Made by a program: the position numbers and the translations under genes. Below, one piece after another: positions 4,163-39,600 of a stretch of DNA of 64,000 nt (the stretch's first letter is position 1; each line of letters starts with the position of its first letter). The DNA comes from Tubulanus polymorphus (lineage: Eukaryota > Animalia > Nemertea). The stretch is from positions 24,718,299-24,782,298 of the forward strand of contig NC_134025.1 of NCBI RefSeq assembly GCF_964204645.1, read 5' to 3'. A model generated the notes under the pieces. The model worked only from the letters and a program-made list of their open reading frames with translations. It made no database searches and was not told the DNA's origin.

Positions 4163-5007
4163 ATGAATAACAACTCTTTAGCAGCACCAGCTTACTGGTC
4201 GGCAATCGTGCTCACCAGTTTTTCTGACTTACCACCGAACTTGTTGAGAATATCGTTAATTGCTATGCCAGTTATATTTGTACTCGGTGCCATCGGTAAC
4301 GTGGCGAGTATTGCCATAATGACTAGTGGTTATTTTAGACATTTGTCATTTGCGAACTACCTGGCTGCCTTAGCTGCTTCGGATTTTGCGCGTTATACGA
4401 ATTTGTTTTTGATTTTGCCATGCATTGCAGTTCATGGATCGTGGTCGTGATAGCGTTTGAACGACTAATGTTGGTTCTATTCCCTTTTACTGCTCGTATC
4501 GTCTGCACACCAAATTTTGCTAGGTTGACCGTAGCTGGAGTCTCAATTGTCAACTTATGTATTTCATCCAATACGTTTTTTCTGGTGCATTATTCGGTTG
4601 TTTTCGGTTGTAAATACGGAAGTGCTGAAAGTCAAAACATAATATTTTTCATATCTGTCACGTACGATTATGTCTGTCCAATTTGTTTGACTGCGCTGTT
4701 CAACGTGATCATTATCGTTAAGCTGTGTAGAGAACGAGATTTTGGGTCCGGTGGTTCGAAATCGTCGAAAACTCGACAAACAACCATTATGTTAGTGACA
4801 GTTACCTTATCTTTCGCGGTAACTTCAATACCGAATACAGTAGCAACGTATCTAGATGTGTCGACAATTGAAAACGGTGAATTACTTGTTTCACTGACTA
4901 TTCTTCTCAGTCTCAATTACAATATGAATTTCTATATATATATTCTTGTTGGAAAAGAAGTCAGAAAATATTTGTCACTTCAATGCAAAGCAATTTGCAG
5001 TCAGTAA
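4163..5007 (+). pseudogene. Intronless class A (rhodopsin-like) peptide GPCR of the FMRFamide-receptor-like invertebrate group, with internal deletion and frameshift
   Basis: One frame gives TM1 (IFVLGAIGN) and TM2 (YLAALAASD). A second frame continues FCALYEFVFDFAMHCSSWIVVVIAFER (TM3), TM5 (YDYVCPICLTALFNVIII), TM6 (TTIMLVTVTLSFAVTSIP) and TM7 (LNYNMNFYIY). The frames join at about 4384-4387 with the second half of TM2 and ECL1 missing and no intron to repair it. Confidence 0.8.
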
Positions 5008-8600: not shown

Positions 8601-11600
8601 AACTCGTCGAAATCTTGACATTTCAGACAATGTCACAACTCATTCGCACGTTAATTTCAACGTTTGACTTCTGTGGAGATTCTATGATTGATTAATTATT
8701 CTAGGCTGTGATGAAAGGGAATGTTTCGATCTTGGGTGTATACTTAAGAAACGATTATATCATTTTTTATATTTGCTAATCGCGTGCAGAATAACGATTG
8801 ATTAGGAACGCCGTAGCATTTTTATCGGAGAAAGAAATAGTGGTTTCCCCTGTCCAAGTATGGGGGCAATTTGTACCGAATGACGAATATTCGTGAACAC
8901 AAGCGGTTGACAAAACGGTTTAATAGGAAAATACGCGTATAAAGAGAAAATGGCTAAATAAAGGATGAGAGAATTTCATCATCAGCGACAGCATCCAATC
9001 CCGTCGCTCCGTTCGGCCGTCTGATACGAGCGTTGCTATGGTAACTACTGGTACCTGTTCAAATTGTGCTGTACAGATGGGATTCGTGGGTCGATGGCGA
9101 TAAATAAAGCTGAAATCACGTTCGTAGAAACCGATGATTAGTGATAGAATGTTAATTAATTTCGGTTTACACAACGTACATTTCAAAATAGCTATTCCAA
9201 ATGATCAACAGAAAAATGACTCGTAAGTTTATTGACGCCTATAAGAAAGCATGCATATTATCGACAATGAATATACAATATATATGATTCACAATACAAT
9301 TATTTACAATACCATATACAATACAATATCAAGAATCAACAAAGTTATTTTGAATTTGAATATATCGACGATTGAATTGAATTGTTCGGCAACCAGTCTA
9401 GCCTCAATGTCTTTGCTTTTTGCTTTGGAAAAACGCGCTCCGATATTTGAAAACATGAAATTGTATTGAAATTGAAAATGAGAGTCGTGAAATTAATCAA
9501 ATTACAAAATTAACGCCAAAATTCACAATCGTTATGCCAATTTCGATGACGGAGTGGCGCATCGACTAACACAGTGCCCATAAGGCATCACGTAGTTATA
9601 ATGCATATAAACATTATTGTGAGGGTTTTTATTTCACTGCGTCAAATAAAGATTATAATAAAAAAGACCCTGCCATTCAGTGACACTGTAGATTTGGGCC
9701 ACACTGAAATTTTTTATCGGCCGTAACGTTAAATGTGATTAGAAGAAACAACTTTGGTTCGATGAAATTTTCAAAATTGCATCCAAATACGTCGGAGATC
9801 TTACAATACTTCTATTCAATTCGCGTACTCAGTGTTCGTTAAAGTCTGTAAATGCTCAGTACCGCTATCATATCATATCTTTACTAAGTTATCTACCTCC
9901 AGCAAATCTAATTACAAGTCGTAATGCAGATTCTACTGAAGGAGGGGTATCAAGCCGATACGTACACATATTATTTTCTACCATCAACATCAATTTATGC
10001 ACCACTGCAGTTCTGTCGCCTCGTTTCTGACATTTCCCTCGAGAGAGGATGAGGTTATAAATATAGCGTGCCGTTCATGCGATCAAAAAAATCTTTTCTT
10101 CTTCGTCGGTGGTGGATAATTTAGTTATGTATCAACGTGAGAATGGCCGGGGGAAGGTGGACCTGTCTGAACGGCGGGATGCATAATTTACGACTTTTCG
10201 TCTGAAACTGAACAAAAATGATAAGAAATGAACCTTTCTTCGACTTAACGATGGGCGTGTCTGTGTAGTTATCCACAGCCGGGTCGAATTCGGATTCGTA
10301 TGGCACAAAATAGTCTTAGTTGATATGATTGGGAAATTTTTCGTCGTGCAGCCGCAAATTGACGGTTGCAGATACTTTGCCGACAGCATCGCGCGAATCG
10401 GTTTGTACTGCGCTGCTGTCGACGCGTTTTGTCGTTAAATACGACATGATAGCGCTGCTAAAGACTGGGTGAAAATCTATACCCTTTGGTGGAAAGATTT
10501 TATCGCGTTGTGCTATCAGCGTTTAGTTTAAAATGATCCGAAGTGAACAGGGCTTTTATTGTCTTTCTCAGAAATGATGGGATAAAAATGACGCACGAAA
10601 ATATCGCTCAACTTTTTAGATTAATCAAGGGAAATAACGCATGTCTGCAAAGATAAAAATCCACCCTTCCCTATGTATAATATTATTTAATTTTAGTCAA
10701 ATAAAGTGGCTAAAGCAATACATTTGTATTTGGTAATTTTCTTTTAGGTGCTTGGATCAAAAAAAGAGTTCTATTTTGTACATAAAGCAGTTCCGCATAA
10801 CCGAATGAAGAGAAGTGTTCCTCACACCCGCAAACTACGAGCAGATCCATTGGTAAGTCCTTGGATGGCGGAGGCTACACTCGGGGCGGATTCCCCGAAT
10901 TCCCATATGCGGGGGTTTTCGTATGTCTTGGGAGTGCGTGTTTGTTTTAGAAACACGTCTGCCTGTCATACTAAGCCGCATCGATCATTTGAATAGCGTC
11001 CGCTGAAACAAGTTTATTAGAATCAAATTCATATGGAACATCCAACAGCAAAGTATAAATCATAGCGGATTAACTAAGCGCATAAATAAAGATCTCATTT
11101 GCAATTTACAAAATTATGACTGTAATGTTTTAAAGCTGATGGTATACACATGTTTATCTATTCATTTCGTAGCTGGAGATAATCATTAAGACTATAGCAT
11201 GTACTTGAACTTGTTTCCCTAGCATTTCAGAATATTTATTAGTCTCGGGGTGGATCCAAGTTCAAGAACGAATATGGATACTAAAAGGGTATTACTGATT
11301 GCAATGATCTTTATTCTGGTTATATCACATTTTTTACGAATCTAGGTTAGATTAGCAGTCCAGCAGGCTGGCTTTCGACGTACTAAACGAGGTTACAAGC
11401 CTATTCAACGGGGCGTGCCTTTGAACGGAAATTTCGACGACGGGCACATCAATAACAGACACGATAAATCAGCCCCAAACGATCCACTTTACGGAAAAGA
11501 ATGGTACCTGGTAAGGATCTTTTTTCGTTACAAATAAAGTTACAGAGCTTCATAACGTATCGTTATGCTTTGGAGAAAAATTCTATAATGTCAGATGCCG

Positions 11601-14600
11601 CTACACAGACACCTGAAGGTCAGGGGATGGGAAATATTTGTTTAGACGAGGAGACAACGACGTACAACGTGGGCTTAGACACAACGGTGTCATTTCGTGA
11701 AATTATATATCGCTAATTTTGTATTCTTAGAAAAATGTCGGCCAAGCGGGGGGAATAAAGAAATTGGATCTGAACGTAGAGGCTGCTTGGGCGTTGAATA
11801 TCACAGGCAAGGGCGTCACTACTGCAATTATGGACGACGGTAAGTCATGCGGTTTCGTTACTAATAACACCACATTATCATCAAAGCCCCTTGACATAAA
11901 CGGCTCTCCATCATCATTCACGGCCACTAGCGCAAATCCATGACATATATCCGACGAACCGCAGATTTCTATAAGATCCCTTCAAAAAAGTCATTTCAAT
12001 CGGGAAAAACTGCCAGAAGTAGTTTTTACTGAAGTAGATTTTTTCTTCTTTTCTGCATACGTAACTATCGGGAAACGCAAAAAAAGAATATAGAAATATG
12101 GGTCTGATATCGAAAAAAGTGAATTATAATATCAATTCCTTTTGAATGATTGAAAGATTAGAATATAAAAAATATTTCGAGATTTAGTTCGAATTGAAGA
12201 GCTTCAATGAAATGTCCGGGTCGTCGATTTTTGCTAGTTTACTTTCGTTGCGATACAGACGTTTTAAGTGTTCGGCATAAAATGAACATTCAGATTCGGT
12301 ACCACCGTCACCAATGATTTGTGAACCCACGCACATTTTACTATCGGTAGATAATGACTACTTTGCTTACATGATTGTCAACTGTACACTAGATATGACG
12401 TAAATGATGTTGCTAGTTTTATACGCCGATTGACTTGAATATAAAAACGAAGAAGTCGGCCATTCGCACACTGTTGTGCCCAAGTCTTGGAGAAAAATAG
12501 TATGATAAATAACGCAAAATTGAAGATATAAAATCATTGAAATTTAGCCCGGGATCAATGTCTCGGTCAAGAAACACTTATGATTGTAATGATAATAATG
12601 GCTGAGGGAATTTACTGATTTTTGTGATTCAAGCCTTTTTATGGTGGGCGATTGGGGGATGATTGCACTGACGGGTTCTATTGATGATATACAGAATTCT
12701 ATTGAAATAAGTCTATAATCGGTGATGGTACTTCATTGTTGATAAACTGGTGCGCATATCTAAGTATTTCTAACTATTGCTTGTAACCATAACATCCCTT
12801 TTTCAACATTTCACGATGATTTTCATTTTCTTAAAGGTGTCGATTACATGCATCCGGATATATGGGATAATTACGTAAGTGATATCAGTTTTCTTAAATC
12901 AATGTTTATAACCTTATTGCCATTTCCATTATGGTTTCATTTCAAATTTGATATGTCCGACTATTCATCGGAGATTCATTTAAAAGTAATGCACCCGTGC
13001 TCCAAGCCCACGAACGTTAGCAAAAATAAATTACCGCAACATGATAATGGTGGCTCGGATATGTTTTTGATACTCAATTATGTTTCGCTTAGCTGCAACG
13101 ATGCGGTTTTAAAGGTTAATCCCTGGGGGATTACTCAGCTTGGTGGTGCAAATCCTCGTTTGAGATTTCATGTTTCGTTCGTAACCCTAGACCGTGTACA
13201 CATCGGCTACATTGTGGCAATTTCATCATGATTAATTCAAAAATTACTCCCGCACTGTTACTGGAATATATCAAGCCTAACTACGCAAGCCGCATTCATA
13301 GAACGCTTTGCTCAGTCTGTTGAATGATATTTCGTTCAATAATTGCCAACGGCTCAAGAATACCAATTAATTGCATAGAATACGCACATTCGGTATTGTC
13401 AATAGTACAAATTCGGAATTTTCCTGCCATATTCTTTCGTTAGCAGTCTTGGAACAGAAGAACCGTTATCTCTAACGTTATGTAACGTTCATTCACGCCA
13501 ATTATTCATAAACAGATAGAAAAGATAAGAAAATGTTTATTTTCTTTTTTACTGACTTAAATTGGAAACAGGCCAAATTGCATTAGAAAGAAACCAAAAA
13601 TACATGCTCGGCTCACCTTGACTATTAATGATGGTCCTGTATTTGGACTCGCTGAGAAAAAAGTGATTGATATTAGCGCCGTGTTTGTCCAATCGATTAC
13701 TACAAAGAGACTCATGTTTGGTCGAAAACTGTAGGCGTGGAAATATTTGTTCTTTGTTGTACGAGATGATTAAATCGGGCGATACGGTTTTGTTCGCTTT
13801 CAGAATGCGGAAGCCAGTTACGATTTCAGCAGCAACGACCCGTACCCCTACCCGAGATATACGGACGACTGGTTTAACAGGTAAAATTTGAAATTTATCC
13901 CGCACATTTTCGCTTATCATTCTTCGTCATATTTCATTTCATAGCATAATGAAATATGCATGCAGTCCATTATTACATCAAGATCTTTGCAAATAGTGTT
14001 CATGACTAAATTTACGAATGAATATGGAATTGTTTTATCATTCGCCTACCGTTTGATGAGGTTTCTATGGACACGAGGATTCATTTTGAGGCAATGTATA
14101 AGGCATCTGCGATAGCCCACGCTTTTTCCTACGAACTCCCTTCCTTATAAGACATTCCCAGAATTTGAGACCATCAAATTACGCATTGTTCAAAAATACT
14201 GTATAGTATCTTAACTAAAATCTAAAATTCATTAGTTTATTAATTCCTTGCTGCGGAACACAAAAATAGCAATTATTTATATATTCGAACATTTGAAAAG
14301 TAATTGTTGACCGCAGTAATGATAGACAAAAACTTATCCCGGGTTAACAGCTATCAAAACCAGAGTAATAAAATATTATGTAATATCATTAAACCAAATG
14401 GAATAGTTTTCGTAGGTTAGGGCAAGACCGCTTTAAACGGCAAAGCAATCAATCACGTGGCTATAAGTTTGATTAGGCTTGGACACGAATGTTACGCGTT
14501 TGCGTGTTAGATTCGGTCTTGTTTGTCTTCTGGATAATTCACCACACCTAATCACGAGAAACCTAATATATTTCATGTATTTACAGCCATGGAACGAGAT

Positions 14601-21652: not shown

Positions 21653-22500
21653 CAATAATTCGTGAACACGGAAGTGGAATCCTATGCTAGCTTAAGCTTA
21701 TGAATTAACGGTCATGGCGAACTTTCATGCCGTCAAAATACCGTGTAAACGTCTTCATACCGCGTAAAAATGCGATGTATGAATGCCTAGAAACGTAAAA
21801 TAGAAAATGTTCTCGTTTAGTTCATTTCTAGAATCTAGATTATTTGCATGTGTATTTGCAAGTATGTTATTATTTATCCATGTATTCATTTTGGAAATAA
21901 ATTGCAACATTGTGTACAATGAGCCAATCAATACATGATGTTGTAGCATAAAATTGCGGTTTCAGAAAAAGCTAGGCTTGTATATGAACTGAAACCCAGA
22001 ATAGGAATGTGAGATATAAAGTGTAGTAGTTGGTTATAGAGACCTACTGTGCAAAATCTACCTAAATACAGAGATTGAGATTCATAAATATAGCAGCTTA
22101 AAATGGACCAACAAAAGAGGATAGTCGATTATTAAGTGAAGATATAATGGCGTTTCATGTTTGATTTGAAATTATCCAAACTTTGGTAATCTGAGCAGAT
22201 TTGGATAAAGGGTCTGTGTATTCTAGGTAGTAATTTTAAGTGATGATTCTTAAGACTCTTTTTTGAAGTCTGTATAATTTACCGAAGTCGAAAATGTTGC
22301 CCGATACAACATTACAATAAAATAGGTGAGGGTAGATAAGGCTGACATACAGTTGTCTTATTATATTACAAGGTAAAAGTTTAGATAATTTGGAGATACG
22401 AATATGTTTTGCTACAATTGTAGTGGTGGTGATACTTGTGTGTTTTTCCCAGTTCAGTTTTTCGTCAATTTGAATGCCTAAGAATTGACGTGAAACCCTG

Positions 22501-22644
22501 GGTCCAGTTGCACATGTTATGGCTCAAATTCAAGACTAGCCTTAAACCAACATAGTTCGATAGCCAATCTAATCTAATTACTTAAGACCAGTTTTAAGAT
22601 TTAAGACCACTTTTTGACTTAAGTCACGACTGTGCAACTGGGCC
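22501..22644. mobile_element. PIF/Harbinger-like MITE
   Basis: TIRs GGTCCAGTTGCACA / TGTGCAACTGGGCC, flanked by a 3-bp CTG duplication (22498-22500 and 22645-22647). Confidence 0.75.
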
Positions 22645-22708
22645 CTGGCTGTTTATTCCTATATAGGTCACCTTCATCAGACCGAGTTGTATTTTCAATC
22701 GCGATATT

Positions 22709-22770
22709 GAAAGCGTTCTGGAATTCCCTCACCGGGAAAGCGTTCTGGAATTCCCTCACCGGGAATACCC
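22709..22770 (+). promoter_or_regulatory. 27-bp tandem duplication forming a cluster of three NF-kB-like sites
   Basis: GAAAGCGTTCTGGAATTCCCTCACCGG x2 (22709-22735, 22736-22762). TGGAATTCCC (= GGGAATTCCA on the minus strand) at 22719 and 22746, and GGGAATACCC at 22761. Confidence 0.6.
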
Positions 22771-23045
22771 ATTATCATAGAAAGTATGATTATGTCGAAG
22801 GAAAACTGAGCCGACTATTAATAACGAATACTCGGACGGATAGCTTGATCTTCGTAATATAACCAAGAGGGGACATTTAAAGTAGGTCTATTGCTGAAAG
22901 TGAATAAAGGTGAATCCTTAATCATTTGAAATGGTGTATAGTACTCGTTCACGATTTCTGAAATACATCGTTGCACATTTCAAGGTATATTATTTCATTC
23001 AAAAATTTTAAAAGAATGTCATTGTATCGTATTTTCAGCGGGAAA

Positions 23046-25106
23046 ATGTCATCATTGATCGGTATCTTCGTCGACGTGTCAGGCTCAATGAGGAGAAGCT
23101 TTACCGCAGGCAGCAGAGGCCAGAAAATGGAAGGAGGAAGCTGGGCGCGATCAATCTTTAAAACCGTTGATGAATTTATCAAACACGATGTTTCGTCTGA
23201 TGACAAAGTTTTCTCGATCGGTTTTGGTGCAAAGAATACCCCCGAGGTTTTTGACTTACTGAACACAGTCCGCTTGAATCGTGGCCACCTCGGAAATCGG
23301 CTGTACGATGATTTTGATAAAGTGGTTATATTGAACAAGTTGTTAACGATTCTAGAGAGTAATGGGGCTCCATACGTGCGAGATTGGGCAGATTGCAGTA
23401 TACTGTTGAATGAAGTTTCTCACAGAGATGCAAATACGATCCTTTCTTCAGTTGAAAAGAGTGACGAATTTAGAAGAGATTTTGTGCGGTCCTTACCTGA
23501 TGAATGTCGCATCCGATGTTATCGGTCTGAAATGGCCCGCCATTCTAGCGCAGTATTGAGTTGGTTTGGGCAAGGCACGATGTTAGGTGGCGTGTTCAAC
23601 GCACCGGAGAGAATGGTCAAGTCAAGAACAAAACAGTCCATCAGGGACGTAGTGCACAATAGTAGAATGTTGATGAAGATACGAACTCAAGATGTATCGG
23701 CTAAATCTATCATGAGTGTGGAAGAAGCATCAGCTATAATGCACGATGGCTCAAACGCCGACGAATTAAAGGAATCAGAGATTGACGAAATGATGGAAAC
23801 GGTAGAATCCGTCATCTATGGTGGAACTCCATTTTTTCAAGCGTTACGACAGGCGGAATCCCTTTTCAAAAGATCACCAAACAATGATGAAAAAAAGGTC
23901 TTAGTTATCCTGTCAGATGGTTTTCCTACAGATTCGAGAGATGTGACATCGTTTAGATCACGCTTTCTCGAAAATGGGGTTACGATTGTTACTTGTTTCA
24001 TTACGACAGATGATATTGACGACCCGAGACGGCTCTACAGCAAAAAAGGATTGTGGTGGAATGAAGGCGCTAGGTTTCTTTTTGATCTCAGTTCGACGAT
24101 TGCAACACAGGTGGTTCCTCGCACGATATTTGTCAAAAGAGGTTGGAATATCGATATAACCGACAATGAGACGCGGTTGTTTTTCCAAATAAGCCATCCG
24201 GATTTCATCGCAGATATTTGGTCATTTGCGCGAGATGTTGTATGTTCACAGGACGCTCTCGTTGATTTGTTGGCTTGGGTTGACTTGGACCTGCTGATCA
24301 ACAAGGCTAACCAGGGTTTCCGACCTCAGGAACAGAGCGGGGGTACTTGCTATGCCAATGCTGTCGCCGTGGTATTATACCTTGCAATGAAGCGTATCGT
24401 TGGTCGTACGGATGGATATCCTAACTTTTTCGATCTTCGAGCAAAAATCATCGACATCTATGGAATGCACGGGGCAAACACTCGCAATGTCCTCGATATG
24501 ATCTGTCCAGAATATCGCTTGCATCACAAACCGGTAGAAATAAAAGGAGCGCTTGTGGCTATTTCTAAAAAACGACCAGTAGTCGCAAGATTTAGACTAA
24601 CTGACGACGAGTGGCGTTCATTTTCATTGTTTTTTAGGCAAAATCCACGGGGAATTTTGTCAGAGCGTGACCTCAAGTGTCATCGACCGACGACCGACAA
24701 ACTATTCGGCCATGCAGTCGTCCTTACTAGTTACAACAGTGAATGTTTAAGATTCATGAACTCGTGGGGCACTGATTGGGCCGATAGTGGCTACTTTAAA
24801 GTAGCCAATGCCCGCGTGATCGATTTTGAATTCTTCGATGTATATTGGACGCTGTCCGATTTGCATCCATCGGAGATCCGCGAGTTCGAAAAATATGGAC
24901 CAGAAATAGCTGACCGACTATTCAAATCATTGCGGGGATTGCAATCAGCCACGTACACCTGTCCGATTTGTAGGAAACCATCGAAGGTCACAGAATTCAC
25001 GGGCAAGTTAGTTCAAGCGAAATGTCCGAATTGTTTGGAGTTGTTTAGTGTAGATGAGAGTTGTCATGATCTAGTATTGAATATGTACTTGACGTCGCTG
25101 GGTTAG
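23046..25106 (+). CDS. VWA domain + papain-family (C1-like) cysteine peptidase + C-terminal CxxC..CxxC Zn ribbon; single coding exon, about 686 aa
   Basis: MIDAS DVSGS, GGTP and LVILSDGFPTD (VWA); QEQSGGTCYANAVA, FGHAVVL and FMNSWGTDWADSGYF (papain Q/C/H/N); CPIC...CPNC. A splice acceptor (attttcag, 23038) just before ATG 23046 suggests a 5' UTR intron (donor about 22910). AATAAA at about 25231. Confidence 0.9.
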   Translation: MSSLIGIFVDVSGSMRRSFTAGSRGQKMEGGSWARSIFKTVDEFIKHDVSSDDKVFSIGFGAKNTPEVFDLLNTVRLNRGHLGNRLYDDFDKVVILNKLLTILESNGAPYVRDWADCSILLNEVSHRDANTILSSVEKSDEFRRDFVRSLPDECRIRCYRSEMARHSSAVLSWFGQGTMLGGVFNAPERMVKSRTKQSIRDVVHNSRMLMKIRTQDVSAKSIMSVEEASAIMHDGSNADELKESEIDEMMETVESVIYGGTPFFQALRQAESLFKRSPNNDEKKVLVILSDGFPTDSRDVTSFRSRFLENGVTIVTCFITTDDIDDPRRLYSKKGLWWNEGARFLFDLSSTIATQVVPRTIFVKRGWNIDITDNETRLFFQISHPDFIADIWSFARDVVCSQDALVDLLAWVDLDLLINKANQGFRPQEQSGGTCYANAVAVVLYLAMKRIVGRTDGYPNFFDLRAKIIDIYGMHGANTRNVLDMICPEYRLHHKPVEIKGALVAISKKRPVVARFRLTDDEWRSFSLFFRQNPRGILSERDLKCHRPTTDKLFGHAVVLTSYNSECLRFMNSWGTDWADSGYFKVANARVIDFEFFDVYWTLSDLHPSEIREFEKYGPEIADRLFKSLRGLQSATYTCPICRKPSKVTEFTGKLVQAKCPNCLELFSVDESCHDLVLNMYLTSLG

Positions 25107-27097
25107 TAATGGCGTAGAAACGACTGTGGAACAAACGCTAAATTACTTCCGATACCTATGCACTATGGCATTAGTGAAAATCAAATACGATTCAATTCAT
25201 TACATGTTGAAAAAAACAAACATTCATTGAAATAAATACATGTAGTGTTATTATTCATTTCCCTATGAGAATAAACTCGGGAGGTGTTCAGTATTATTAG
25301 TTTAGTTTATTGTTGTAACTATTATGTTCATATGTATGATTATTATTATCCGTATAACTCTTATTATCAATTATCTCCACTAACATTATATATATGTAAA
25401 AGTATGTAAAAGTATAAGTATCATCATTAACATCATAATTTTTTTTCTATTTTAGTCATTTTTATTATCATTATATTGAAGTATATGTATTATAGTTAGT
25501 GTATTATCATTATTACATGTACTATCATTTATATCTTTTATTGCTGCACCATTGATCATTTGACTGGTATCAAAATCGACAAAAATAAATATATATACAT
25601 GTATATTCAATATTGAATTGCACACTTGTAAATGTTTTCTCGCGATAAATTTCTTCTAAACATTACCTGTATTGCGACAAGTAAGTGAAGATATTGAGTG
25701 TCGAAGATAGTGGTACAGTGGTACAATCATCAGATCCTCTCTTATCCGAAATAAAAACGATTAATGGTAATTTTCGTCTTATTGTATTATTTATTGTAGA
25801 CAATGAGTCTATAGACAACATTAAAACATGTAGCAAGCACACTTTGTTTGGCTAAGTTATCATTAAGGCAAATTGTACGGAGCGTTACAAAGATGAAACT
25901 AAAATTCTTAAAGCAATAAAATAAATCTATCACTTCATCGAATACATTTGTTTATCTCAAACATTTCATACACTATGCTAGCGATGAACATATTCAAGGC
26001 ACCAGATATGGAATCCGTTAGAAACCCTTTATTAGAATGTTCCTATAAAAGTCGGGAAACTACGTTAGTAGTAACACATGTACTTGCGTATGCAAGTTTT
26101 ATAAAGTAATAAATACCCAGCGTAAGAGTAAGCAGAAAAAAGCTACATTACTACATAATAAAAGCACCAGTGGCAGACAGATTTTTACTAGTTTGTCTTC
26201 ACCTCTTTCAAATATAATCTGGTTTTGACAATTTTCGATGGTTTTAATTAATGCCGGAAAACGAACTTAACAAAAAACAACAGAAAAAAATAACCTAGAC
26301 CTAAAGACTTAAAGTGATATGTTTCCGTTTTATGATAAAATCTAAATGCAAATTGACGAAACATAACGACTAGGAGTAGGCCTACAAATGCAAAATTGGT
26401 TTTCTTGACTAGGTACTTGCAGTAGCATCGGCAACATTCTAAATTTGTCTATTTATCCAATGATTTTTCTAACGGAATTATCATCTCTCATATAAGATTA
26501 AATACCTAATCGATAAAACCGGTCTGATTCAAGATCGTTGCCATTTTTTACACGTACTACCAGTACTTAATCAATACAAAACGAATCAAATATTATGAGG
26601 TTAAAAATGTAAACAGTTTTGTCTAAGAGTCATCTCACCTTACACAAGCCAATTTACCAACACGTCACTACAGAAGTAAAATTCAATACCGATCAATCAA
26701 CCACAAATTAGTAACGAATAAATGTACATTCACTGTAGAATAGATTAATACTCTATACGTGTATATACGTCATGAAGAAGGCATTAAAGGTGGAAAAACA
26801 ATGACATATGTATATCTCATTATTTTGTATACGTGATCTAATGCAAGGCATTTAATAAATTGATTAATGGAAGCATTAGATTATTTGAGAACAGAATTCT
26901 AATCGTATTCAAGAACAGATTATTCATAATGCATCTTATACGATGAAGTCAATACGAAACTTTGTATGTTAGACACAATAATTGTTTTCATTGTTCATAC
27001 CAAGTCAAATACAGTAGTAATTGGAAAGATGGAAATTATGGAAGATATCTTGATTTCTGCCTCTGTTTAGATGAGATTGTCTGTCTGTCCTCTCCAG

Positions 27098-30085
27098 TTA
27101 CCAGTTATCCAAGAAATCGAATCCCGACTTGATGGTGTCTGATTTGATGTTTGCTCTCTGAAAATCAAAGCAAATAGAGCAACAATCACTTTCAATGATC
27201 TATAAATGTGAGAAATGACAAGCATTTGCATGACAATAGGATACACAATATACAGTAAAATGAATCAGTCAGAATACCAGTACTGACAATCAGTTCAGAA
27301 AAGGTTGAAAAGTTCATGTAATAAATGAATATTTACTCGCGCAACATATGATAAAGACAACCATGAACCTTTTGTCGCATTTTCTGAGTGATTGTGAGAA
27401 TTCTTACATGAACGAGCATTTATTCTATCAATATCTTGAGACAATACTTCAAACAAATTCTGCCAAAAAATTGTATGTATAATACGAGACTTACCGCATT
27501 TTTCTTGCGTAGGAAATCATCTTCGATATCTAGGGAATCATCGGAAGTAAGATGAACACTTTCTTCTCCTTGGTTGTTGTACCTCTTTGTTGTTACCTTG
27601 CGGTTGTCTTTATTATGCGGCTTCAGAGCTGGCGACTTATGCAACAATGCTGTTGTGGATGAATCACTTTCAACACTGGCTCGACGATCTTTCCTCATTG
27701 GAACTGGACAGTAGACGTCATCATCACGATTACCATTCGCCCTTCCGCAGTAATTCTCGTAAATAGAATCACCACCAACTTCCAATACGTCGTAAAGAGG
27801 CTCGCTGTCGATCATGGAGGCACGATCATTACCCGGGGCATTCATGTATGGGTTTCCAACATCCATAGCATTCATATACGGACCACTGCCCTCATTCATA
27901 TAAGGATTCCCACTGTCGTACAAAACATATGTGGGATCAGGGATATCTTCGATGGGATTTGAAGCTCGTTCATATAACATGTACGTTGGTTCTGTGCTCA
28001 CCGCATCTGGTTCATTGCCTCTAGCATCATACAGCGCGTAAGCCGGTTCTGCAGAATAATCTTGTTCATGAAGTGCATACGGTGGTTCTTCCGTATTGTT
28101 TGCATACGCTGGCTCTTTTTCTTTGAGTACATTGTATGCTGGTTCATTTTTCGATGACATTTTTTGCAGAATGCTCGAAACAGAAACAGGCCGGGAATCT
28201 TTATTGGTTTTTGTCTCACTGACTAGTTCGTTGTACTGTGGTTCGGTCTTACTTTTTCGCACAGCTGCAGTAGGTCGTGCCGCGATCTTCTCATCCAGAA
28301 CTTTATAAGGAGTATTTTCTCTCATAGCGTGTGTCAAATGTGTTGTAAATTTTTCGATTTTTTCATCAAGAACATTATAGGGGGGCTCAACTCTGGATTG
28401 ATTTCTAATTGGCTCTGCAGGTTTTCCTTCCAAAACATTATAAGGTGGATCTGGTTGTTTGCTCAGGCTTTTTGTGTTTTCTAATACATTGTAGGGTGGC
28501 TCCTTTCCAGGTCGATGTAATGATTGAGTCTTTTTTGAAGAAAACCTTTCTTCTTCAAGAACATTGTACGGAGGCTCTGGTTTCTTCCGGCGGAGGGACT
28601 GAGTAACATTCGAAGGAGGCACTTCCTCCAACTCATTATAAGCAGGTTCCGGTCTTTGGGATTGACTTACAGTTGTTGAGCTTTGCTCATCTAATTCATT
28701 ATAAGCAGGCTCAGTTTTATTCAAGTTGATTTTCCGGGGAGCAGCAACTGGGGCACACATGTTTACTTCTTCATCAAGTTCATTGTAAGGAGGATCAGTA
28801 TTGCCATCATCGAGCTCATTATAACGTGGTTCAGCACTATAGTTATCATCATGTTCATCATATGGAGGCTCAACATTCTCTTCTAATTCATTATAAGGCG
28901 GATCAGCATTTTCGTTTTTATATCTCGGTTCTTCTGCTTGAGCTTTTTCCACTTCTTCTTCCTTTTCTAGAGGATAATTGGCTTCGTCAAGATACTGAGG
29001 TTCATCTTCATATTTTGGTTCAAGGAGAGATGGTGGTGGAATCTTTGCATACATGTGTTCAGCATTTGGATCCTCAATATCAGGAAGTTTCAAACTATCA
29101 GCATCTGATTCACCCAAAGCGATGCTCATTTTGAAGTTTGCGAATAACTGTTCGGCTTCTTCAGTGATTGACTTAGCACGACTGAGCACTTTTGATTTTC
29201 GAGATCTTTTACGAGAGCCGTAGTCCGACTCTTTCGAGTTTTCATCAGCGTCTATGAGAGCTGCGCTATCATCCAGGTCTTCCAATGGCAACGAAAAATC
29301 ATAGTCATCTCCACGATCGAGAGCGAGGAAAGGTGAATCCCAGATACTTTTTTCCGGTTTCCAAGGAAAGTCAATTGTTTTATTGCCATCATTCGATGAA
29401 TCTGAATGGCGCTTTGGTTTCTTCGGTCGTTCAATCGTCCTTATTCTTTGGTTTGTTTCTTCTTCACTTTCGAAAAGTGGCATATCTAGTTGACTCTGCA
29501 ACAACGAGAACATACTCAATCAAAATTTTGAATTCATAGCTAACTAACAGAAAACCACAAGTTTCATAAAGAAAGTCCAAATCGACTCATAAATATAACG
29601 AAAAATTTCTTTAAGCGCACCTTTGTTTCCCAACAAAACGGTCCAGAGTGTTCATCCGTCCATGTCCAGCCCTGTTGAAATGAAAGATATGTTGAGCATG
29701 AATTCCTATATAGAACTATCGTATCAAAGTCATTATCTACAAAAATCAGTTTGAATCACTTTACCCGTTTAGCTTAAAAGGCTAATATTAGTTAGTCTAT
29801 GCATACCCCGTCGTTTTCGAAATCTACGATAATCTTTTCACCACTTCCGAGTTTGAGTTTCGGGAAAGGGTTTGTCATTTCTGGTTCGGGTATATCCGCG
29901 TATTGTTGAGCAACTAGTGGATCAATGAGATAGCTATCGATAACATCATCTCTTTCTTGTGGGGTCATCTCTTTCCAGTCATCACCGTACATGCGTTCGA
30001 TTATTTCTTGCTCATCCATAATTCTTTTAGCTATTGGATTAATTGATGAGAAATACTCATGAGCTAGATTCTCCACCAAAGCCAT
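27098..30085 (-). CDS. C1orf198: C1orf198 (DUF4706) homolog, about 796 aa, with a long Tyr-motif insert; 4 exons
   Basis: Exons 30085-29807, 29671-29621, 29495-27495, 27157-27098. The N-terminus YFSSINPIAKRIM...FPKLKLGSGEKII...WTDEHSGPFCWETKSQ and the C-terminus KSGFDFLDNW* match the conserved ends of C1orf198. Confidence 0.9.
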
Positions 30086-31793: not shown

Positions 31794-34700
31794 ATGGGTT
31801 CAATAAGTATAGCAACAATATTGTTGATCTGCTGTGTCGGATTGAGTGCTGGTAAGTTTAGTTAATGATTTACTAATTATGTATTGTTTTGAAAAGACTT
31901 GTATGAATATATCTATAACACTTTCATGTCAATTTAGGATTTTGGGGGAGAAAAAGACCTCGTTATCCACCGGGTAAGTAATTATGTTTGTTCATAGTTT
32001 ACATTGGTCCGACCATCGACATCGCACGACTGACTTCATCTAATTTCAGCTCCATCGATTGCGGGTTATCAAAGACGAAATGGTGACTGCTATGGTCATG
32101 ATATCGGTCGTGTAACTAGGATTAAGGATTTGAATACATGTAAATCAACATGCGACAATAATCCGAATTGTAAAGGTTTTGTCTCCACGAAATCGACACC
32201 GTATCAATGTTGGTACAAAAATGTAAATTGTAAAACATTGAGACGTTCCTCGAACCGGCTAACGTATGATAAGACGCGTAAGTCCCTTCGTGTGTGCTTT
32301 TCTCAATGCTATGTATTCTCAATTTACAAATACGTTTCCGCAGGATAACTTGTGATATTCTTTTGTTGAATATATTCTGAATAGTTTCACCAGAATGTGG
32401 TAGTGCTCCTAGTTGTCCAGAAAATTCTTACTGCGATCATTCGTTGCAAGAATGTGTATGTAAACGTGGTTTTGCTATGAGTTCAGATGGTGAATCCTGT
32501 GAGCGTGAGTATCATATATAGTCTACATCCTTTTTTCTTGCCAATATGTACAAGTTATACTTATCAGCTGTATTCATTCATTAATTTAGCTGCATGTTCC
32601 TGTCGAGGTTCTGGCGATCCTCACTACAAAACATACGATGGCATAAAGATTGACTTCTACGGCATTTGTAAGTATACATTGACCAAATCGATTGACGACT
32701 CCGGTCCGTGTGCATTCAATGTGGAAGTAAAAAATGAAAGACGTGGTTGGAACAAACGTGTATCGTATACAAGACTGGTCGATGTAAAATTCGCTGGGAA
32801 AAGATTCAGACTCCATCAGCGTAGCAATTTATTTGTAAGTCGCATACAATTGAATACTTTCAAACTTTTCGAATCCCTTGATTTATCAGAATATCCACCT
32901 CATTATATTCACTAGGTTGATAAATCCACTACGGCTACCGCATTGCCATATACATACAAAGACGCCTCAATTATTAGAGAAGGTCGAAAGATTGTTTTCT
33001 TGGCAGAGAAATGTGGTATACGAGTATCTTTCGACGGAAGAAGTTCGGTTGAAGTAGAAGTACCCCGAAAATATTCAAACAAAATGAATGGTATGCAAAT
33101 TATATCAGATTCTATAAAATGTTCCATTTTCTAAATATCTATGGCACGAATCGATCGCCAGGAGATCGCACTGCTGCATCATTTAAGTACAATTTAATAT
33201 TAATCCCTACTGCCATGAACCGTTACGTGAAGTCAAGATTATGACAAAATATTCCAACTCGGATTCAAAGCGATATATATCCATCTGATTTCTTGTTTGA
33301 AAATATTTTCCAGGTTTATGCGGAAACTGCAATGGAAATAGAAACGATGATTTGACTACTTTAGAAGGAGACAATGTTGCTGGAAAACGAAATGCGCAAA
33401 GTCTTGTTGGTGTTAGTTAATCTGTTCCCGATGATTCGGACATGCCATCACCTAAGTATTAGAATTTGCAATCACAACCGTACGTATATCTGATCGTTTT
33501 ATTACTAATTGATAATATTTTCGTAATTTTTAGTTGTAAAGCCGTCCCACCTATCGATGTGGAAATCAAATGTGATGCTGACAGGCTTCGCGACATAGAT
33601 TCGCCGCACGTTTGCGGTTATTTTAAGCACGGACCGTTCGCCGAGTGTATCAGATCTGGAAAGGTAAACACGCATTGATTATTATTTCTCTGAACACTTC
33701 ACAAACATAATCGACGGATTTCGATTCAGTTTTATTTTTCATTTCGTATACTCTTTAACTCTGGACAGGTTGATTCGAAATCTATGTATGAAAGCTGTAG
33801 AACTGATGTTTGCGCTTATTCTAAGGACCAGGAAAGAAAAATGGCCTGTGGTATGTTGGCTGAATTCGCCGATCAATGTATAAAGCATGGATTTTACCCG
33901 AACTGGAGAAAGGATGATTTCTGCCGTAAGTCCCGAGCAAACCAGCCGACGCAAGCTACTACAAACAAGCGCTTTAAATTCATTATAGTATTTGTTTATC
34001 TCAAACAGCTCTTTGGTGTCCAGCAAATTCCGAATATAATCACAAGATGAAAGCTTGCCAAAATAACTGTAAAGATAAAAATGCAGAAAGTAATTGTCAA
34101 GCACCAGATATCGAAGGTTGTGTCTGCAAACGAGGATTCATTTTGGCAGGTCCATCTGGAGACCGTTGCATTCGAGAATCAGATTGTGGAGGTAGTTTTT
34201 AAGTTTTCGCTCAGTTTTCAGAAATAATTATGGAAATAAGCTAGCAACGTTTTCATTAATATATGGATTTAAATGGCTTTATATTTTGTAGAACCCGCTC
34301 CGCCCGCCCCTACACAAACAGTCCTAACTTTGCCATCGTCAGATAATTGCGTTGACACTTTACCAGGTGATTTTTGTAAAACCTTGAAAACGAAAGGCAA
34401 ATGTAAGGAAAGACATACCTTAAGTTTGTGTGGAAAAACCTGCCGAGAAGATTGCCAGGAAAAGAATGACTGCAAGAATAAAATCGCGCACAAATTCTGC
34501 ACGTTTTTGGAGAAGATCGGGCAGTGTGATGATATAAAGATAAAAACACATTGCCCGCAGAATTGTGATCCCAGTTGTAGAAAGAAGAATCCAGACAACA
34601 AAGAAACGAGTAGCGCATTACCGTGCAAAGATAATCTGCCCCGTGATGCATGTGCTGGAATGAAACAACTTTGTGAAAATTCTGTCGTCTCCGCCATGTG

Positions 34701-35335
34701 CCACAAGACCTGTCAACCGCACTGTGTCTGCGACAACGCTTTGCCAGAGAATGTATGCAAGAAGCTGCATAAGATGGGCGCGTGTGCTCACACCATCGCG
34801 TCAGCGTCTTGTCGGAGATCATGTGACCCGGCTTGTAAAAAGCCAAATACCACTCCACCAGACGTGCCGCTCAATATCAAAACGTGCGAAGACAACCTGC
34901 CATTTGGTATGTGCGCCAACATGGAAAAAGACAAATTATGCGAAAACGTAATCGTCAATAGACTTTGCCAGAAATCGTGCAAACCCGAATGCAAAACATC
35001 ACGTAAGCTCGTTTTACTTTTTGTAGATCACATTTTGTAATTAGATTTAATCGTTCCTTGGAAATAATTGTTTATTTCAATGTTCTCGTTGCAGTAGTTT
35101 CAAAGCCATCCCCACATGACTATTGTAAGAATGTGTTGTCTGAACCAGTTTGTATGATGCTTGGAAACGACTGCCACAGACCTTGTATTCGTGCTTTGTG
35201 TGGCACAACATGCGGATTATGCAATGGTTAGAATATTGTAGATTTAGAGCTCCACGAAAGTATCTAATCTTAAACCTTATTATCCACTTGGTCACCATAA
35301 TATGCTATTTCTTTGCAGGATGTGATAGTGAATGA
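31794..35335 (+). pseudogene. Paralog A: secreted PAN-like/EGF/VWD/C8/TIL/6xShKT protein (FCGBP/zonadhesin-like) with an in-frame premature stop
   Basis: Signal peptide exon 31794-31851 (MGSISIATILLICCVGLSA), PAN-like CKSTCDNNPNCKGF..CWYK, EGF, VWD (CSCRGSGDPHYKTYDG...GLCGNCNG), C8 (YESCRTDVC), TIL, five ShKT in the exon at about 34292-35002, one more at about 35095-35226, and last exon GCDSE*. TAA at 33418-33420 where paralog B has TAT. Confidence 0.8.
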
Positions 35336-36629
35336 AATTTAGGAAAATTCGCAGGAAAAAACTTCAAATGATTATTCTAACTCGATCATCCAACCGCCAC
35401 TTTGCCACCAGTTCCATATTTGTGGATTAATTACGACACTTTCGGTCTAAGAAAGTAGGAAATCAGTTTATTTCAATGATCTTAATCGACAAACTCGGAA
35501 CTGGAACAAATAAGTCGTGTGTGTACGATCTCCTTTGAAATTATATGTAGTATAAAATGTGGTTATGTACCCGTGTCAAAGGCCGACTTGAAATATATAA
35601 TATTGTGTTGTCATCACTAATGAAACTATTACGTTGGTCTGCAAAACGGGTGTCTTTAAATTTTGAGATGATAGAAAATATGTCAATCCAACCGGTGATC
35701 TTTGCTCACTATTGTGCAATAATGTAATAACAAAAAAAAACACAATCACTCTTTAAAACAATTGATCTTTTCTACTACATGTATACTCAAAACAGTCCAA
35801 TTATATATTAACATTTATTAACCGGTTTTGAATTATTGTTATGATTAATAGGAAGTTAAGTAGTGTTCTAGATTATTGAATGAAATAAAATCATGCTTGA
35901 AGTATGGAATGTAGCTCTGGTCACTTTATTTATTGATGGAACTCGTCCGTTCTTTCCACCTCGGACAAGTAGATTTGCAGCTTAATTCAAAGATGGACCC
36001 ATACCGATGGCTCTATCTCGAGGCATGGATACTCTAACATAGAGTAACATTAATTAAAAACAGTCAAAACCAACATTTGTCGATAATCGATCTACCATTT
36101 TGAAAGTTATTTGATCGAAGAAATTTCAACCACATAGTGAAGATATCGGCGAAGTTTTTAAGATATCAATGGAATAGTAACTTGAATGACATGTTAATGA
36201 CTTCATGAATGTCAATATTTGAAATAATAAGGAATAAATACGAAGATTTTCTACTATTGCATTGAAGGATTATTTTAAACCGATCTTCTCGCCGAGAAAA
36301 TCAATGGTGGTTTAGATTATTTATTGGTAGTTCATAGGACCCAGATGATCTGCTTTAAGCTATTGTTGCCAACTTGTCAACGGTGCAACACCATATAATG
36401 CTATTATTTCTGAAGTGCTTTTGGTTGAGACTTTGGCCAACATTCAAAGGCTTATATATGGCTGCACCAAGTGAGATGCATTATCCTGGCCGACCAATAA
36501 AATCATGTGTTACTTACAAAATGCATTGGACGCACCAGTGAAAGAAGGCTCTTGATTGGATTTTTGCTGATATTTAAAGAGAATTTGCGAGAATTTCGCA
36601 CTTAACGAAGCAAGTGGGAATGCATTAAC

Positions 36630-39600
36630 ATGGGTACACGTGTTGCAATATTGTTCCTTAGCTGTGTTGGGTTGAGTGCTGGTAAGTTCAAATATCATTT
36701 CAATTACTGGCTAATATTTCCACATATCTTAAATGCTTTCAACACATCTCGCTTTAAATTTTAGGGTTTCTGTTCAAATTTGGTGGGCGGAATCGTAACC
36801 CTCCTGGTAAGTAATTCTTATTTGAAATTTATCGTGTCTACATATTGACGCTATTGATATTTCATCAATGTTAATGTCCATGACTTTTCACTTCAGCTCC
36901 ATCGATTGAGGGTTATAGAAGACGAAATGGTGACTGCTTTGGTCATGACATCAAACACGTAACCAGGATTACTAATTTGAATACATGTAAATCGACATGC
37001 GACCGGATGCCGAACTGTAAAGGTTTCGTCTCAACGAAATCAACTCCGTATCAATGTTGGTACAAAAATACAAATTGTCTGATTTTGAACAATCTATTTG
37101 CGGGGAAAAATAGATTAACCTACGACAAAACTGTTTCCCCACGTAAGTTAATTTTATCTGAATTGTTATCGAATTATAAATATTTAGTACACTTAAGTAT
37201 TTTCCAAACTTTTATCATATTGTATTATTTCAGGTTGCGGTAGTGCTCCTAGGTGTCCAACAAATGCTTATTGCGATCGTTCACTCAAACAATGTGTATG
37301 CCGACGAGGTTTTACTTTGAGTTCAGATGGAAAATCCTGCCAACGTGAGTCTTGTCGACTTATCTACTACGCGTATCGTGAATATTTTGCCATTATTCAG
37401 AACTGGCTAACCAGTCATGTTATCTTATCATTTAGCTGCATGTTCCTGCCAAGGTTCCGGCGACCCCCATTACCGAACGTACGATGGTATCATGATCAAC
37501 TTCTACGGCATTTGTAAATACACGTTGACCAAATCGATTGACGACTCCGGACCGTGTGCATTCAACGTTGAAGTTAAGAACGAGAGACGAGGTTGGAACA
37601 GACGTGTATCGTACACAAGACTCGTTGATGTAAAATTCGGCGGGAAAAGATTCAGACTCCATCAGCGTAGCAATTTATTTGTAAGTTATTAAATGCGTAC
37701 TGAATCGAAAATTCTCTGCATACTTTATTTGAAATCGAAACATAAATGATTTCCGATATTGGCTTTAATCCTAGGTTGATAAATCCACTACGGCTACCGC
37801 ATTGCCATATAAATTCAAAGACGCCTCGATTATTAGAGAAGGACGAAAGATTGTTTTCTTGGCAGAAAAATGTGGTATACGAGTATCATTCGACGGAAGG
37901 AGTTCGGTTGAGGTAGAAGTACCCCGAAAATATTCGAATAAGATGATCGGTAAGATTATTTGGAATTCACAACGCCAGTTATGCTTAAGTTCATTCATAA
38001 CCTAGTGTGAAATGTTCTTTCAGGTTTATGCGGGAACTGCAATGGAAATAGGAACGATGATTTAACCACATTGGAGGGACGAAACGTCGCAGGAAGACGA
38101 AATGCACAAAGTCTTGTTGGTGTCAGTTATTCTGTTCCCGACGATTCGGACAAGCCAGCAGCCAAGTAAAAAATAGATTCTCAAAACTAAGCACGTTTCT
38201 TGAATGTTTTTTAGTGTTTTATAATATTATGGTTTATTTTCCCGTAGTTGTAAAGCTGTTCCACCTATCGATGTAGAAATCAAGTGCGATGCTGCCAGGC
38301 TCAGAGATATCGATAAGCCATTTGTTTGTGGATACTTTAAGAAAGGGCCCTTCGCCAAATGTATTAAATCTGGAAAGGTCATTAAATAGACTAGCTAGAT
38401 TATTTCCTTAATTGGAATCGAAAAACGTCGATGAAAATACTTTCTCTTTAACCAGGTTGACTCGAAATCTATGTATGAAAGCTGTAGAACTGATGTTTGC
38501 GCTTATCCTAAAAACCAGGAAAGAAAAATGGCTTGCGACATGCTGACAGAATTTGCCGATCAATGCATAAAGGTTGGATTTTATCCGAACTGGAGAACGC
38601 GAAATTTTTGTCGTAAGTCCTTGGAAGATCTGCTATCACAAATGATACAAATCCTCAAGATTCCATATAATGTTTTTATTTTTCCATAAAACAGCTCTTT
38701 GGTGCCCTACAAATTCTGCATATCGGCATAAAATGAAGGCTTGCCAGAATAATTGTAAAGATAACAATGCAGAAAGCAAATGTCAAGCACAAGATATCGA
38801 AGGTTGTGCCTGCAAACAAGGATTTATCTTGGCAGGTCCATCTGGAGATCGTTGTATTAGAAAATCCGATTGTAGAAGTAAGTTTTTTCGAATATTCCGT
38901 GGTTAATCTGCAAATCTGGGAAAATATCTGCAGATGAATGATATTCTTTCAATTTACCTTCTTAGAGCCACCGCCTCCACCTCCAACTCAACCAGCTCCG
39001 CCGCCACCACGTATGTAGCAATCTTCAACTATTTTATGATAGCCATCAAAACTTATTTGTTTGAATTTCATTTGATTTATATTCATTTTCATCCGAAGCA
39101 TGTGGTAGAAAATGTCCGCTTCAGTCATACTGTGATAGATCATCCAAAGAATGCCAATGCAAACGGGGATTTAGCTTCAATTCAGATAGGACTGCATGTG
39201 AACGTAAGAAATACATTCAACATACTAAAGGGTGAAATTTTTGGTATAATCATTCTTAATACATTTTCACCTTTCCATTCTAGCTGCCTGTGTTTGCCGA
39301 GGTTCTGGTGATCCTCACTACAGAACCTACGATGGTATTATGATCAACTTCTACGGTATTTGTAAATACACGTTGACCAAGTCGATTGATGAAGACACTG
39401 CATGTGCGTTCAAAGTGGAAGTTAAAAATGAAAGACGAGGTCGGAATAGACGCGTATCTTATACAAGACTTGTTGATGTTAAATTCGGTGGAAAACGATT
39501 CAGACTTCATCAGCATAGCAATTTATTTGTATGTACATAAAAAGCGTATGTTGGAAATATTCTTTGATTTATATGATTAATAAATTGTATAACGTTTTGT

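What the first reader, a model, noticed from the sequence alone, without database searches (positions are those of the whole stretch)
23046..25106. Intronless cytosolic VWA-papain protease-Zn ribbon fusion: candidate undescribed immune/conflict effector, possibly horizontally acquired
Seen: a 2-kb coding region without introns in an intron-dense neighbourhood; no signal peptide and no I29 prodomain; intact MIDAS motif and Q/C/H/N catalytic residues; an insertion of about 190 aa inside the VWA fold (between SIGFG and GGTP); terminal CPIC..CPNC. Established: animal papain-family cathepsins have a signal peptide and propeptide and lack VWA. The GGTP and SDGxPTD motifs resemble bacterial TerY-type vWA proteins of Ter stress/defence systems. 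Inference: a sensor(VWA)-gated protease, of HGT or retrogene origin, acting in innate immunity; consistent with the upstream kB sites.
Basis: partly seen in the sequence, partly recalled or inferred. Interest (0 to 1): 0.78.

Follow-up and report, generated by a model that had tools for sequence, protein, structure and literature searches.

The report
Animal vWA-papain protease, likely immune switch
This is an intact, spliced animal gene for a von Willebrand A domain fused to a papain-type protease and a zinc ribbon; it belongs to a family already named in 2023 but with no function that I could find in print, and it likely works inside the cell as a ligand-gated protease of innate immunity rather than being a recent import from bacteria.

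Summary
In detail: window 23046-25106 encodes a 686-aa vWA (with a helical insert) + papain-fold + Zn-ribbon protein with all MIDAS, catalytic and Cys4 residues, no signal peptide and no I29 hit. One run holds a spliced transcript with a 129-nt intron in the 5' leader, so only the coding part is intronless. It is not undescribed: it fits the 'vWFA-C1 peptidase' lineage named by Kordis and Turk 2023, and a 46%-identical Acropora protein is listed as GT4+TRADD-N+vWA+SERAprotease+ZnR in a Kaur 2021 supplement. No function was found in print. Relatives occur in cnidarians, molluscs, an annelid, a flatworm, a fish, fungi, ciliates and Rhizaria; the query sits with the other animals (SH-aLRT 100), and no credible prokaryotic or viral full-length copy was found, so recent transfer is not supported. 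An immune role is likely but inferred: coral paralogue sets, fusions to Death, TRADD-N and GT4 domains (4 of 28 long relatives), and a fast-evolving Gly-rich segment in an insert with no fold match. The kB-like sites are weak support. New member of a named, unstudied family.

The parts
22497..22648 (.). MITE-like high-copy repeat (18-nt terminal inverted arms) just upstream; not part of the gene, it breaks the contigs so the transcription start is unknown
   Evidence: I1; depth in the 22208-22641 bin 2,000-38,000 against 5-45 over the ORF
22619..22909 (+). 5' leader exon as far as the X1 contig reaches (true start not determined); two short upstream ATGs out of frame (7 and 5 codons)
   Evidence: (contig of 2,699 nt)
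22709..22770 (.). perfect 27-bp tandem duplication carrying two of three one-mismatch kB-like sites (22719, 22746, 22761)
22910..23038 (+). 129-nt GT..AG intron in the 5' leader
   Evidence: joint in run X1; ends checked
23046..25106 (+). single-exon coding region, 686 aa, vWFA-C1 peptidase family
23046..23255 (+). vWA N-terminal part (aa 1-70) with MIDAS D10-x-S12-x-S14
23256..23816 (+). all-helical insert (about aa 71-257): a module at aa 90-156 that is repeated 2-3 times in 17 of 233 relatives, then a hypervariable, often Gly-rich hydrophobic segment (aa 156-193)
   Evidence: no fold match
23817..24245 (+). vWA C-terminal part (aa 258-400) with MIDAS T261 and D291
24246..24854 (+). papain-fold catalytic domain (aa 401-603): Q430, C435, H556, N572; aa 414-431 poorly ordered in the model
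24855..25103 (+). long helix, Cys4 zinc ribbon (C639, C642, C660, C663) and terminal helix
   Evidence: weak zinc-ribbon family hits
25107..25446 (+). 3' untranslated region as far as the X1 contig reaches; AATAAA at 25231 and 25270

Best explanation
The gene encodes a vWFA-C1 peptidase, an old animal-lineage protein that is likely cytosolic and is predicted to work as a self-contained, ligand-gated cysteine protease of innate immunity or cell-death signalling. Shown: intact ORF, spliced transcript, vWA and papain folds, conserved MIDAS, catalytic and zinc residues, grouping with other animal members. Inferred mechanism: with no propeptide and no route to the lysosome, the enzyme needs another off-switch; the vWA domain and its helical insert would supply it. 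The metal-dependent MIDAS and the fast-evolving Gly-rich segment of the insert (which by topology rejoins the fold just before the MIDAS threonine loop) would recognise a foreign or damage-linked protein, or a membrane; this would reposition the poorly ordered segment 414-431 that carries the oxyanion glutamine and switch on cleavage of an invader protein or a host signalling or death substrate. The zinc ribbon would be a structural or substrate-docking appendage. In some lineages Death, TRADD-N or GT4 domains are added in front and would recruit the module to immune complexes.
For: Conservation in 112 aligned members (ungapped rows): D10 102/103, S12 103/103, S14 99/103, T261 103/112, D291 107/112, Q430 110/111, C435 109/111, H556 112/112, N572 111/112, four Zn cysteines 106-107/107. 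Folds. Transcript. Fusions among 28 selected, mostly long relatives: P0142 two Death domains (8e-17), P0288 GT4-conflict + TRADD-like_N, P0054 GT4-conflict, P0088 TRADD-like_N; P0288 is A. digitifera LOC107356762, 46% identical over the whole query and listed among TRADD-N and GT4 immune architectures in PMC8195603 source data. In 11 disjoint close pairs the segment 156-215 has dN/dS 0.78 (bootstrap 0.61-1.05) against 0.36 (0.32-0.40) for the rest; the segment 156-193 is 2-99 aa long and strongly hydrophobic in 17 of 107 members, including fungal and animal ones. Patchy spread with frequent loss (PMC10380794).
Against: No activity, localisation, substrate or induction data. The query itself has no immune adaptor domain and is the only copy in the window. 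Only 4 of 28 long relatives carry such domains, three are from Acropora, where GT4 genes number over 500 (PMC8195603), so the fusions may be incidental; two of the four (P0288, P0088) have Ser for the catalytic Cys. dN/dS of the variable segment is not above 1 and its dS is also raised in several pairs, so relaxed constraint or misalignment can explain it. kB-like sites are not enriched upstream of relatives (37 against 37.4 shuffled). Model coordinates could not be inspected, so occlusion of the active site was not tested.
Confidence: 0.55

Rival explanations
1. A cytosolic housekeeping or stress protease (for example a processing or deconjugating enzyme) in which the vWA domain is a plain substrate- or complex-docking module, as in Rpn10 or TFIIH p44, with no immune role.
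For: Strong purifying selection outside the variable segment (dN/dS 0.31-0.48); one conserved architecture from fungi to animals; intracellular vWA proteins such as TFIIH p44, Ku and Rpn10 are among the tied top structural matches; expressed in the one spliced run found.
Against: Rare in deuterostomes and sparse elsewhere, which is unusual for housekeeping; paralogue sets, split copies and Cys-to-Ser copies; Death, TRADD-N and GT4 fusions.
Confidence: 0.27
2. A membrane-attacking executor: the protease cuts its own chain and frees the helical insert, whose Gly-rich hydrophobic hairpin inserts into membranes, in the manner of gasdermin or HeLo-type effectors.
For: Glycine-zipper-like hydrophobic segments at the same place in Aspergillus, Owenia and other members; all-helical insert with no fold match; faint MLKL_N hits in 2 of 42 inserts (E 0.016).
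Against: The hairpin is weak in the query (best 15-residue hydropathy 1.07) and strong in only 17 of 107 members; it is nearly absent in some. The MLKL_N hits are at chance level and the structure searches did not return MLKL, HeLo or gasdermin with any significance.
Confidence: 0.1
3. A recent horizontal import from bacteria or a virus, or a fresh retrocopy, into this animal.
For: Single coding exon among spliced neighbours; TerY-like vWA signal in the family; one full-length hit on a contig labelled Chlamydiae.
Against: All 15 named non-tardigrade animal rows, the query included, lie on one side of a branch with SH-aLRT 100. The Chlamydiae contig is 5.8 kb with one long ORF and gene-empty flanks, like a eukaryotic contaminant; the other 78 of 79 prokaryotic loci and all 25 viral loci match only the protease part. 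The gene has a leader intron; GC3 is 0.45 against 0.33 and 0.42 for two neighbouring exons; single-ORF coding regions are common in the family.
Confidence: 0.04
4. A secreted or extracellular-matrix protease whose vWA binds collagen-like substrates, like the vWA domains of collagen VI or integrins.
For: Collagen VI, integrin I-domains and TRAP are the best PDB sequence hits of the family profile.
Against: No hydrophobic leader; the spliced leader adds no in-frame upstream coding exon; in most relatives the first Met lies 3-12 residues before DxSxS; a Cys4 zinc ribbon and Death/TRADD-N fusions point to the cytosol.
Confidence: 0.04

Closest known systems
vWFA-C1 peptidase lineage (Kordis and Turk 2023, PMC10380794)
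   Same: Longer C1A peptidase with a vWFA domain; widespread in basal metazoans and protostomes, a few fishes, fungi, sparse in SAR: the same spread as the named hits.
   Different: In the passages and sections I read (8, 10, 15) the paper gives it one paragraph, no accessions (its one supplement lists none), no mention of the insert, the zinc ribbon, fusions or a function.
[quoted passage not shown] 2021, PMC8195603, Figure 4 and 6 source data)
   Same: Same vWA + papain + Zn-ribbon module, 46% identical over the whole query.
   Different: The coral protein has GT4 and TRADD-N in front and Ser in place of the catalytic Cys; the main text does not contain 'SERA' or 'ZnR', so the module is listed, not discussed.
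Classical C1A cathepsins and papain (cathepsins B, C, F, L; Der f 1; xylellain)
   Same: Papain fold and Gln/Cys/His/Asn active site.
   Different: No signal peptide, no I29 propeptide hit, 13-19% identity, vWA in front and zinc ribbon behind.
TerY-type vWA proteins of bacterial Ter and defence systems
   Same: GxTP and SDGxxxD motifs; PADLOC TerY model hits 8 of 20 members; one fragment is named YegL by its source.
   Different: The query is not hit at E<=0.05; TerY lacks the insert and protease (recalled); structural matches to many vWA families are tied; no shorter stand-alone relative of the vWA half was found.
[quoted passage not shown] 2020, PMC7159879; as summarised in PMC8195603)
   Same: Logic of an effector placed C-terminal to a vWA domain.
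   Different: No MoxR ATPase, VMAP or iSTAND partner seen; a eukaryotic single gene. I saw passages only, and none described this fusion.

Membership tests
vWFA-C1 peptidase (Kordis and Turk 2023) | C1A papain-fold peptidase domain with catalytic residues | tested here: met
   Peptidase_C1 above cut-off; Z 16.4 to Der f 1; Q430, C435, H556, N572
vWFA-C1 peptidase (Kordis and Turk 2023) | vWFA domain in the same, longer polypeptide | tested here: met
   vWA fold over residues 1-402, Z 17.3; 686 aa
vWFA-C1 peptidase (Kordis and Turk 2023) | Spread: basal metazoans and protostomes, few fishes, fungi, sparse in SAR | tested here: met
   Named full-length relatives in corals, Hydractinia, Owenia, Mya, Mytilus, Ruditapes, Macrostomum, Coilia, Aspergillus, Zopfochytrium, Paramecium, Leptophrys; choanoflagellates and echinoderms not seen among the named rows
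vWFA-C1 peptidase (Kordis and Turk 2023) | Sequence match to the authors' own reference members | not testable with these tools
   No accessions for this lineage in the text read or the supplement
vWA+SERAprotease+ZnR module (Kaur et al. 2021 source data) | Full-length homology to the listed protein LOC107356762 | tested here: met
   46% identity over 697 columns
GT4/TRADD-N immune effector proteins (Kaur et al. 2021) | GT4 or TRADD-N domain in the polypeptide | tested here: not met
   No such Pfam hit in the query; the spliced leader adds no coding exon
Lysosomal or secreted cathepsins | Signal peptide and I29-type propeptide | tested here: not met
   No I29 hit at E<=1; no hydrophobic leader (hydropathy only, no dedicated predictor)
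TerY-type vWA | Match to the TerY profile ahead of other vWA families | tested here: inconclusive
   8 of 20 members hit the PADLOC TerY model, the query does not; that library holds few vWA models; structure matches tied
TerY-type vWA | Operon with Ter genes, PP2C phosphatase and kinase (recalled) | tested here: not met
   Animal gene between unrelated spliced genes
Innate-immune sensor-gated proteases (functional class) | Ligand-dependent activation and induction by infection | not testable with these tools
   Needs biochemistry and challenge data

The most novel reading that the evidence does not exclude
vWFA-C1 is an overlooked one-chain immune switch shared by invertebrates, fungi and protists: a MIDAS-bearing vWA domain and a helical insert of undescribed fold sense an invader, release a papain protease that needs no propeptide, and self-cleavage frees a hypervariable glycine-zipper hairpin that acts on membranes, giving a caspase-independent cell-death route that is wired to Death and TRADD-N adaptors in some animals.
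Probability: 0.15. Interest if true: 0.85.

Novelty: new member of a known kind. Interest (0 to 1): 0.42.

Why it matters
The family has a name but, in the searches I ran, no function, structure or mechanism. If it is a gated cytosolic papain protease of immunity, it adds a protease class beside caspases to invertebrate and fungal defence, and Aspergillus nidulans (XP_682209) gives a laboratory route to test it. PMC10380794 also says fungi lost all ancestral cathepsin lineages, so this is one of few C1A enzymes they keep. The insert may be an undescribed helical domain. The gene in this window is itself an ordinary member of the family.

Tried and rejected
No whole genome is held, so copy number and synteny in this species were not tested; one copy in the window. 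Prokaryotic source: 79 GTDB loci, one full-length (gene-empty 5.8-kb contig, judged a likely contaminant), the rest protease-part matches; 25 viral loci, protease part only; plasmids, 6 weak C1 hits; viral structure library, single-domain matches only. These scans use short exact patterns and can miss distant fusions. Stand-alone shorter relatives of the vWA half: none at E<=0.01 among 86 candidates. Insert: no usable Atlas hit, no Pfam family for the query insert, only a designed-repeat hit in PDB sequences, Foldseek best E 1.3, best Z 5.2; this does not prove a new fold. kB, IRF and STAT motifs upstream of 32 relatives: kB 37 against 37.4 shuffled; IRF-like no higher upstream than downstream; TTCNNNGAA 29 against 17.5 shuffled upstream, not followed (the true promoters may lie beyond leader introns). 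The run search listed no holder on record as RNA; run X5 laid nothing, which is no evidence. Literature: 'vWFA-C1' 1 paper; von Willebrand+papain+SERA+Acropora 0; six locus names 0; TerY+vWA+papain 0; searches gave no paper on the family's function by listing. The library lacks most subscription papers. Earlier findings of this scan: none by sequence, words or place. No complex prediction was run, as no partner is proposed.

Full report
Observation. Pfam hits are weak: VWA_2 3e-5 and VWA 1e-4, both just under cut-off, and Peptidase_C1 9.5e-5, above it; no I29 propeptide. An AlphaFold model from 112 aligned sequences has pLDDT 84.6 and pTM 0.75. It matches vWA domains over residues 1-402 (Z 17.3) and papain-fold enzymes over 399-601 (Z 16.4) (Foldseek agrees on the papain part). 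The vWA fold is interrupted by an all-helical insert, and a long helix, a Cys4 zinc ribbon and a terminal helix follow the protease. MIDAS, catalytic and zinc residues are kept in 92-100% of ungapped rows.

Gene structure and expression. Run X1, whose kind is not on record, holds a 2,699-nt contig from 22619 to 25446 that skips a 129-nt GT..AG intron (22910-23038) seven bases before the ATG; five other GT..AG or CT..AC joints occur in neighbouring genes in that run. So the gene is transcribed and spliced in at least one sample of one study; only the coding region is intronless. The leader adds no in-frame coding exon. The 5' end is unknown because contigs break at a high-copy MITE-like repeat at 22497-22648. 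A second sample (X2, unspliced contigs) differs at 7 coding positions, 4 replacements (all in the vWA or insert) and 3 silent, with no indel listed in the ORF; too few to test selection.

The kB-like sites. No exact GGGRNWYYCC occurs in the window; three one-mismatch sites lie at 22719, 22746 and 22761, the densest cluster of 41 merged sites in 64 kb. Two come from one perfect 27-bp duplication, all lie inside the X1 transcript contig, and the first G of the third is A in both X1 and X2. Upstream of 32 related loci such sites are not enriched (37 against 37.4 in shuffles). They are a weak, local hint.

The family. 236 proteins scored E<=0.001, the best 120 listed at 42-49% identity, mostly full length; the exhaustive search found 227 clusters at E<=1e-30, and the Atlas has a 322-member eukaryotic cluster, commonest phylum Ascomycota. 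Named members: Owenia, Montipora, Acropora, Hydractinia, Coilia; of 30 representatives looked up, 11 named an organism: Mya, Mytilus (2), Ruditapes, Aspergillus nidulans, Leptophrys, a tardigrade, Paramecium, Macrostomum, Dendronephthya and Zopfochytrium. In a 59-row tree (IQ-TREE quick, LG+G4, insert left out, midpoint root) the 15 named non-tardigrade animal rows, query included, lie on one side of a branch with SH-aLRT 100, apart from fungi, Paramecium, Leptophrys and the tardigrade; 37 rows are unnamed and branching inside the animal group is poorly resolved. In prokaryotic genomes 1 of 79 loci is full length, on a 5.8-kb contig labelled Chlamydiae with no other long ORF; 25 viral loci match only the protease part. 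In metagenomes 37 of 79 loci carry 600 or more profile positions in one ORF, mostly with gene-poor flanks (the scan favours intact copies). A single coding exon is thus a family habit, and recent transfer into this animal is not supported. An older bacterial origin of the parts is open: the TerY model hits 8 of 20 members but not the query.

What is in print. Kordis and Turk 2023 (PMC10380794; abstract, passages, sections 8, 10, 15 and the one supplement read; table squares not held) name a 'vWFA-C1 peptidase' present in basal metazoans and protostomes, rare in deuterostomes, found in fungi and choanoflagellates, and sparse elsewhere, where they suspect horizontal transfer. They give no function and no accessions. 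Kaur et al. [quoted passage not shown] That protein is P0288, 46% identical to the query over its whole length. Kaur et al. 2020 (PMC7159879; passages) did not show this fusion. 'vWFA-C1' occurs in one paper of the library; other searches found no functional study. So the thing is named and listed, but not studied, as far as this library shows.

Evidence on function. Of 28 selected, mostly long relatives, 4 carry immune adaptors or effectors in front: two Death domains (P0142, source unnamed), GT4 plus TRADD-N (P0288), GT4 (P0054), TRADD-N (P0088). Three are Acropora, and two of the four have Ser at the catalytic Cys (6 of 203 motif matches have Ser). A module of the insert (aa 90-156) is repeated two or three times in 17 of 233 proteins (some of these repeat a larger vWA part), and the segment after it is 2-99 aa long and strongly hydrophobic and Gly-rich in 17 of 107, weakly so in the query. 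In 11 disjoint close pairs of unnamed origin, dN/dS is 0.78 (0.61-1.05) for aa 156-215 and 0.36 (0.32-0.40) for the rest: faster, but not shown to be positively selected. The insert folded alone (pLDDT 76.9) has no convincing match.

Mechanism. Established knowledge (recalled): C1A proteases are held off by a propeptide until they reach an acidic compartment, and MIDAS motifs bind a metal that clamps an acidic residue of a ligand. Here there is no propeptide hit or leader, yet MIDAS and catalytic residues are both kept from fungi to animals, so both are used. I infer that the vWA and insert gate the protease: ligand binding at the MIDAS and variable segment would reorganise the poorly ordered stretch 414-431 that carries the oxyanion Gln430 and start cleavage. 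The target is most likely an invader protein or a host signalling or death substrate (0.55); a housekeeping role with vWA as a docking module is the main rival (0.27); a self-released membrane hairpin is a bolder variant (0.10). None of these steps was tested, and I could not inspect the model's coordinates.

Verdict. A real, expressed, intact member of a named but functionally unstudied eukaryotic family. Interest 0.42.

Noticed in passing
window 27420-29519 (-): 699-codon open exon with many spaced Tyr motifs (YNEL, YNVL, YALY), like a phosphotyrosine docking tail; spliced in run X1; no Pfam hit.
   Followed up: partly
window 32481-51735 (+): A VWD exon followed by a long tandem array of near-identical Cys-rich, Pro-rich exons (ShKT-like by recall; no Pfam hit for two tested), probably one large secreted mucin-like protein.
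   Followed up: partly
window 22497-22648: 152-bp MITE-like element with 18-nt inverted ends and very high copy depth, abutting the leader of the gene.
   Followed up: partly
window 55422-55856 (-) and 4339-5007 (+): TALE-class homeobox exon and a rhodopsin-type GPCR exon.
   Followed up: partly
window 10885-10920: A second pair of one-mismatch kB-like sites.
   Followed up: no
protein P0020 (Coilia grayii): The fish member is 61% identical to an Owenia member, against 44% for Owenia-Mya; with the family rare in deuterostomes, animal-to-animal transfer or slow evolution is possible.
   Followed up: no
protein P0187 (tardigrade): Falls outside the group of other animals, among fungal and protist-side rows: separate paralogue or separate acquisition.
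   Followed up: no
L026:671-2902: Full-length family member on a gene-empty 5.8-kb contig in a Chlamydiae MAG; likely host or other eukaryotic contamination.
   Followed up: partly
L177:2516-4807 and 9472-11769: Two neighbouring copies both stop at a TGA at the same profile position (538); the first resumes in frame right after it, which may mean TGA is read as a residue.
   Followed up: partly
L134, L135, L136: Members whose frames open only under NCBI table 6, so ciliate-like hosts.
   Followed up: partly
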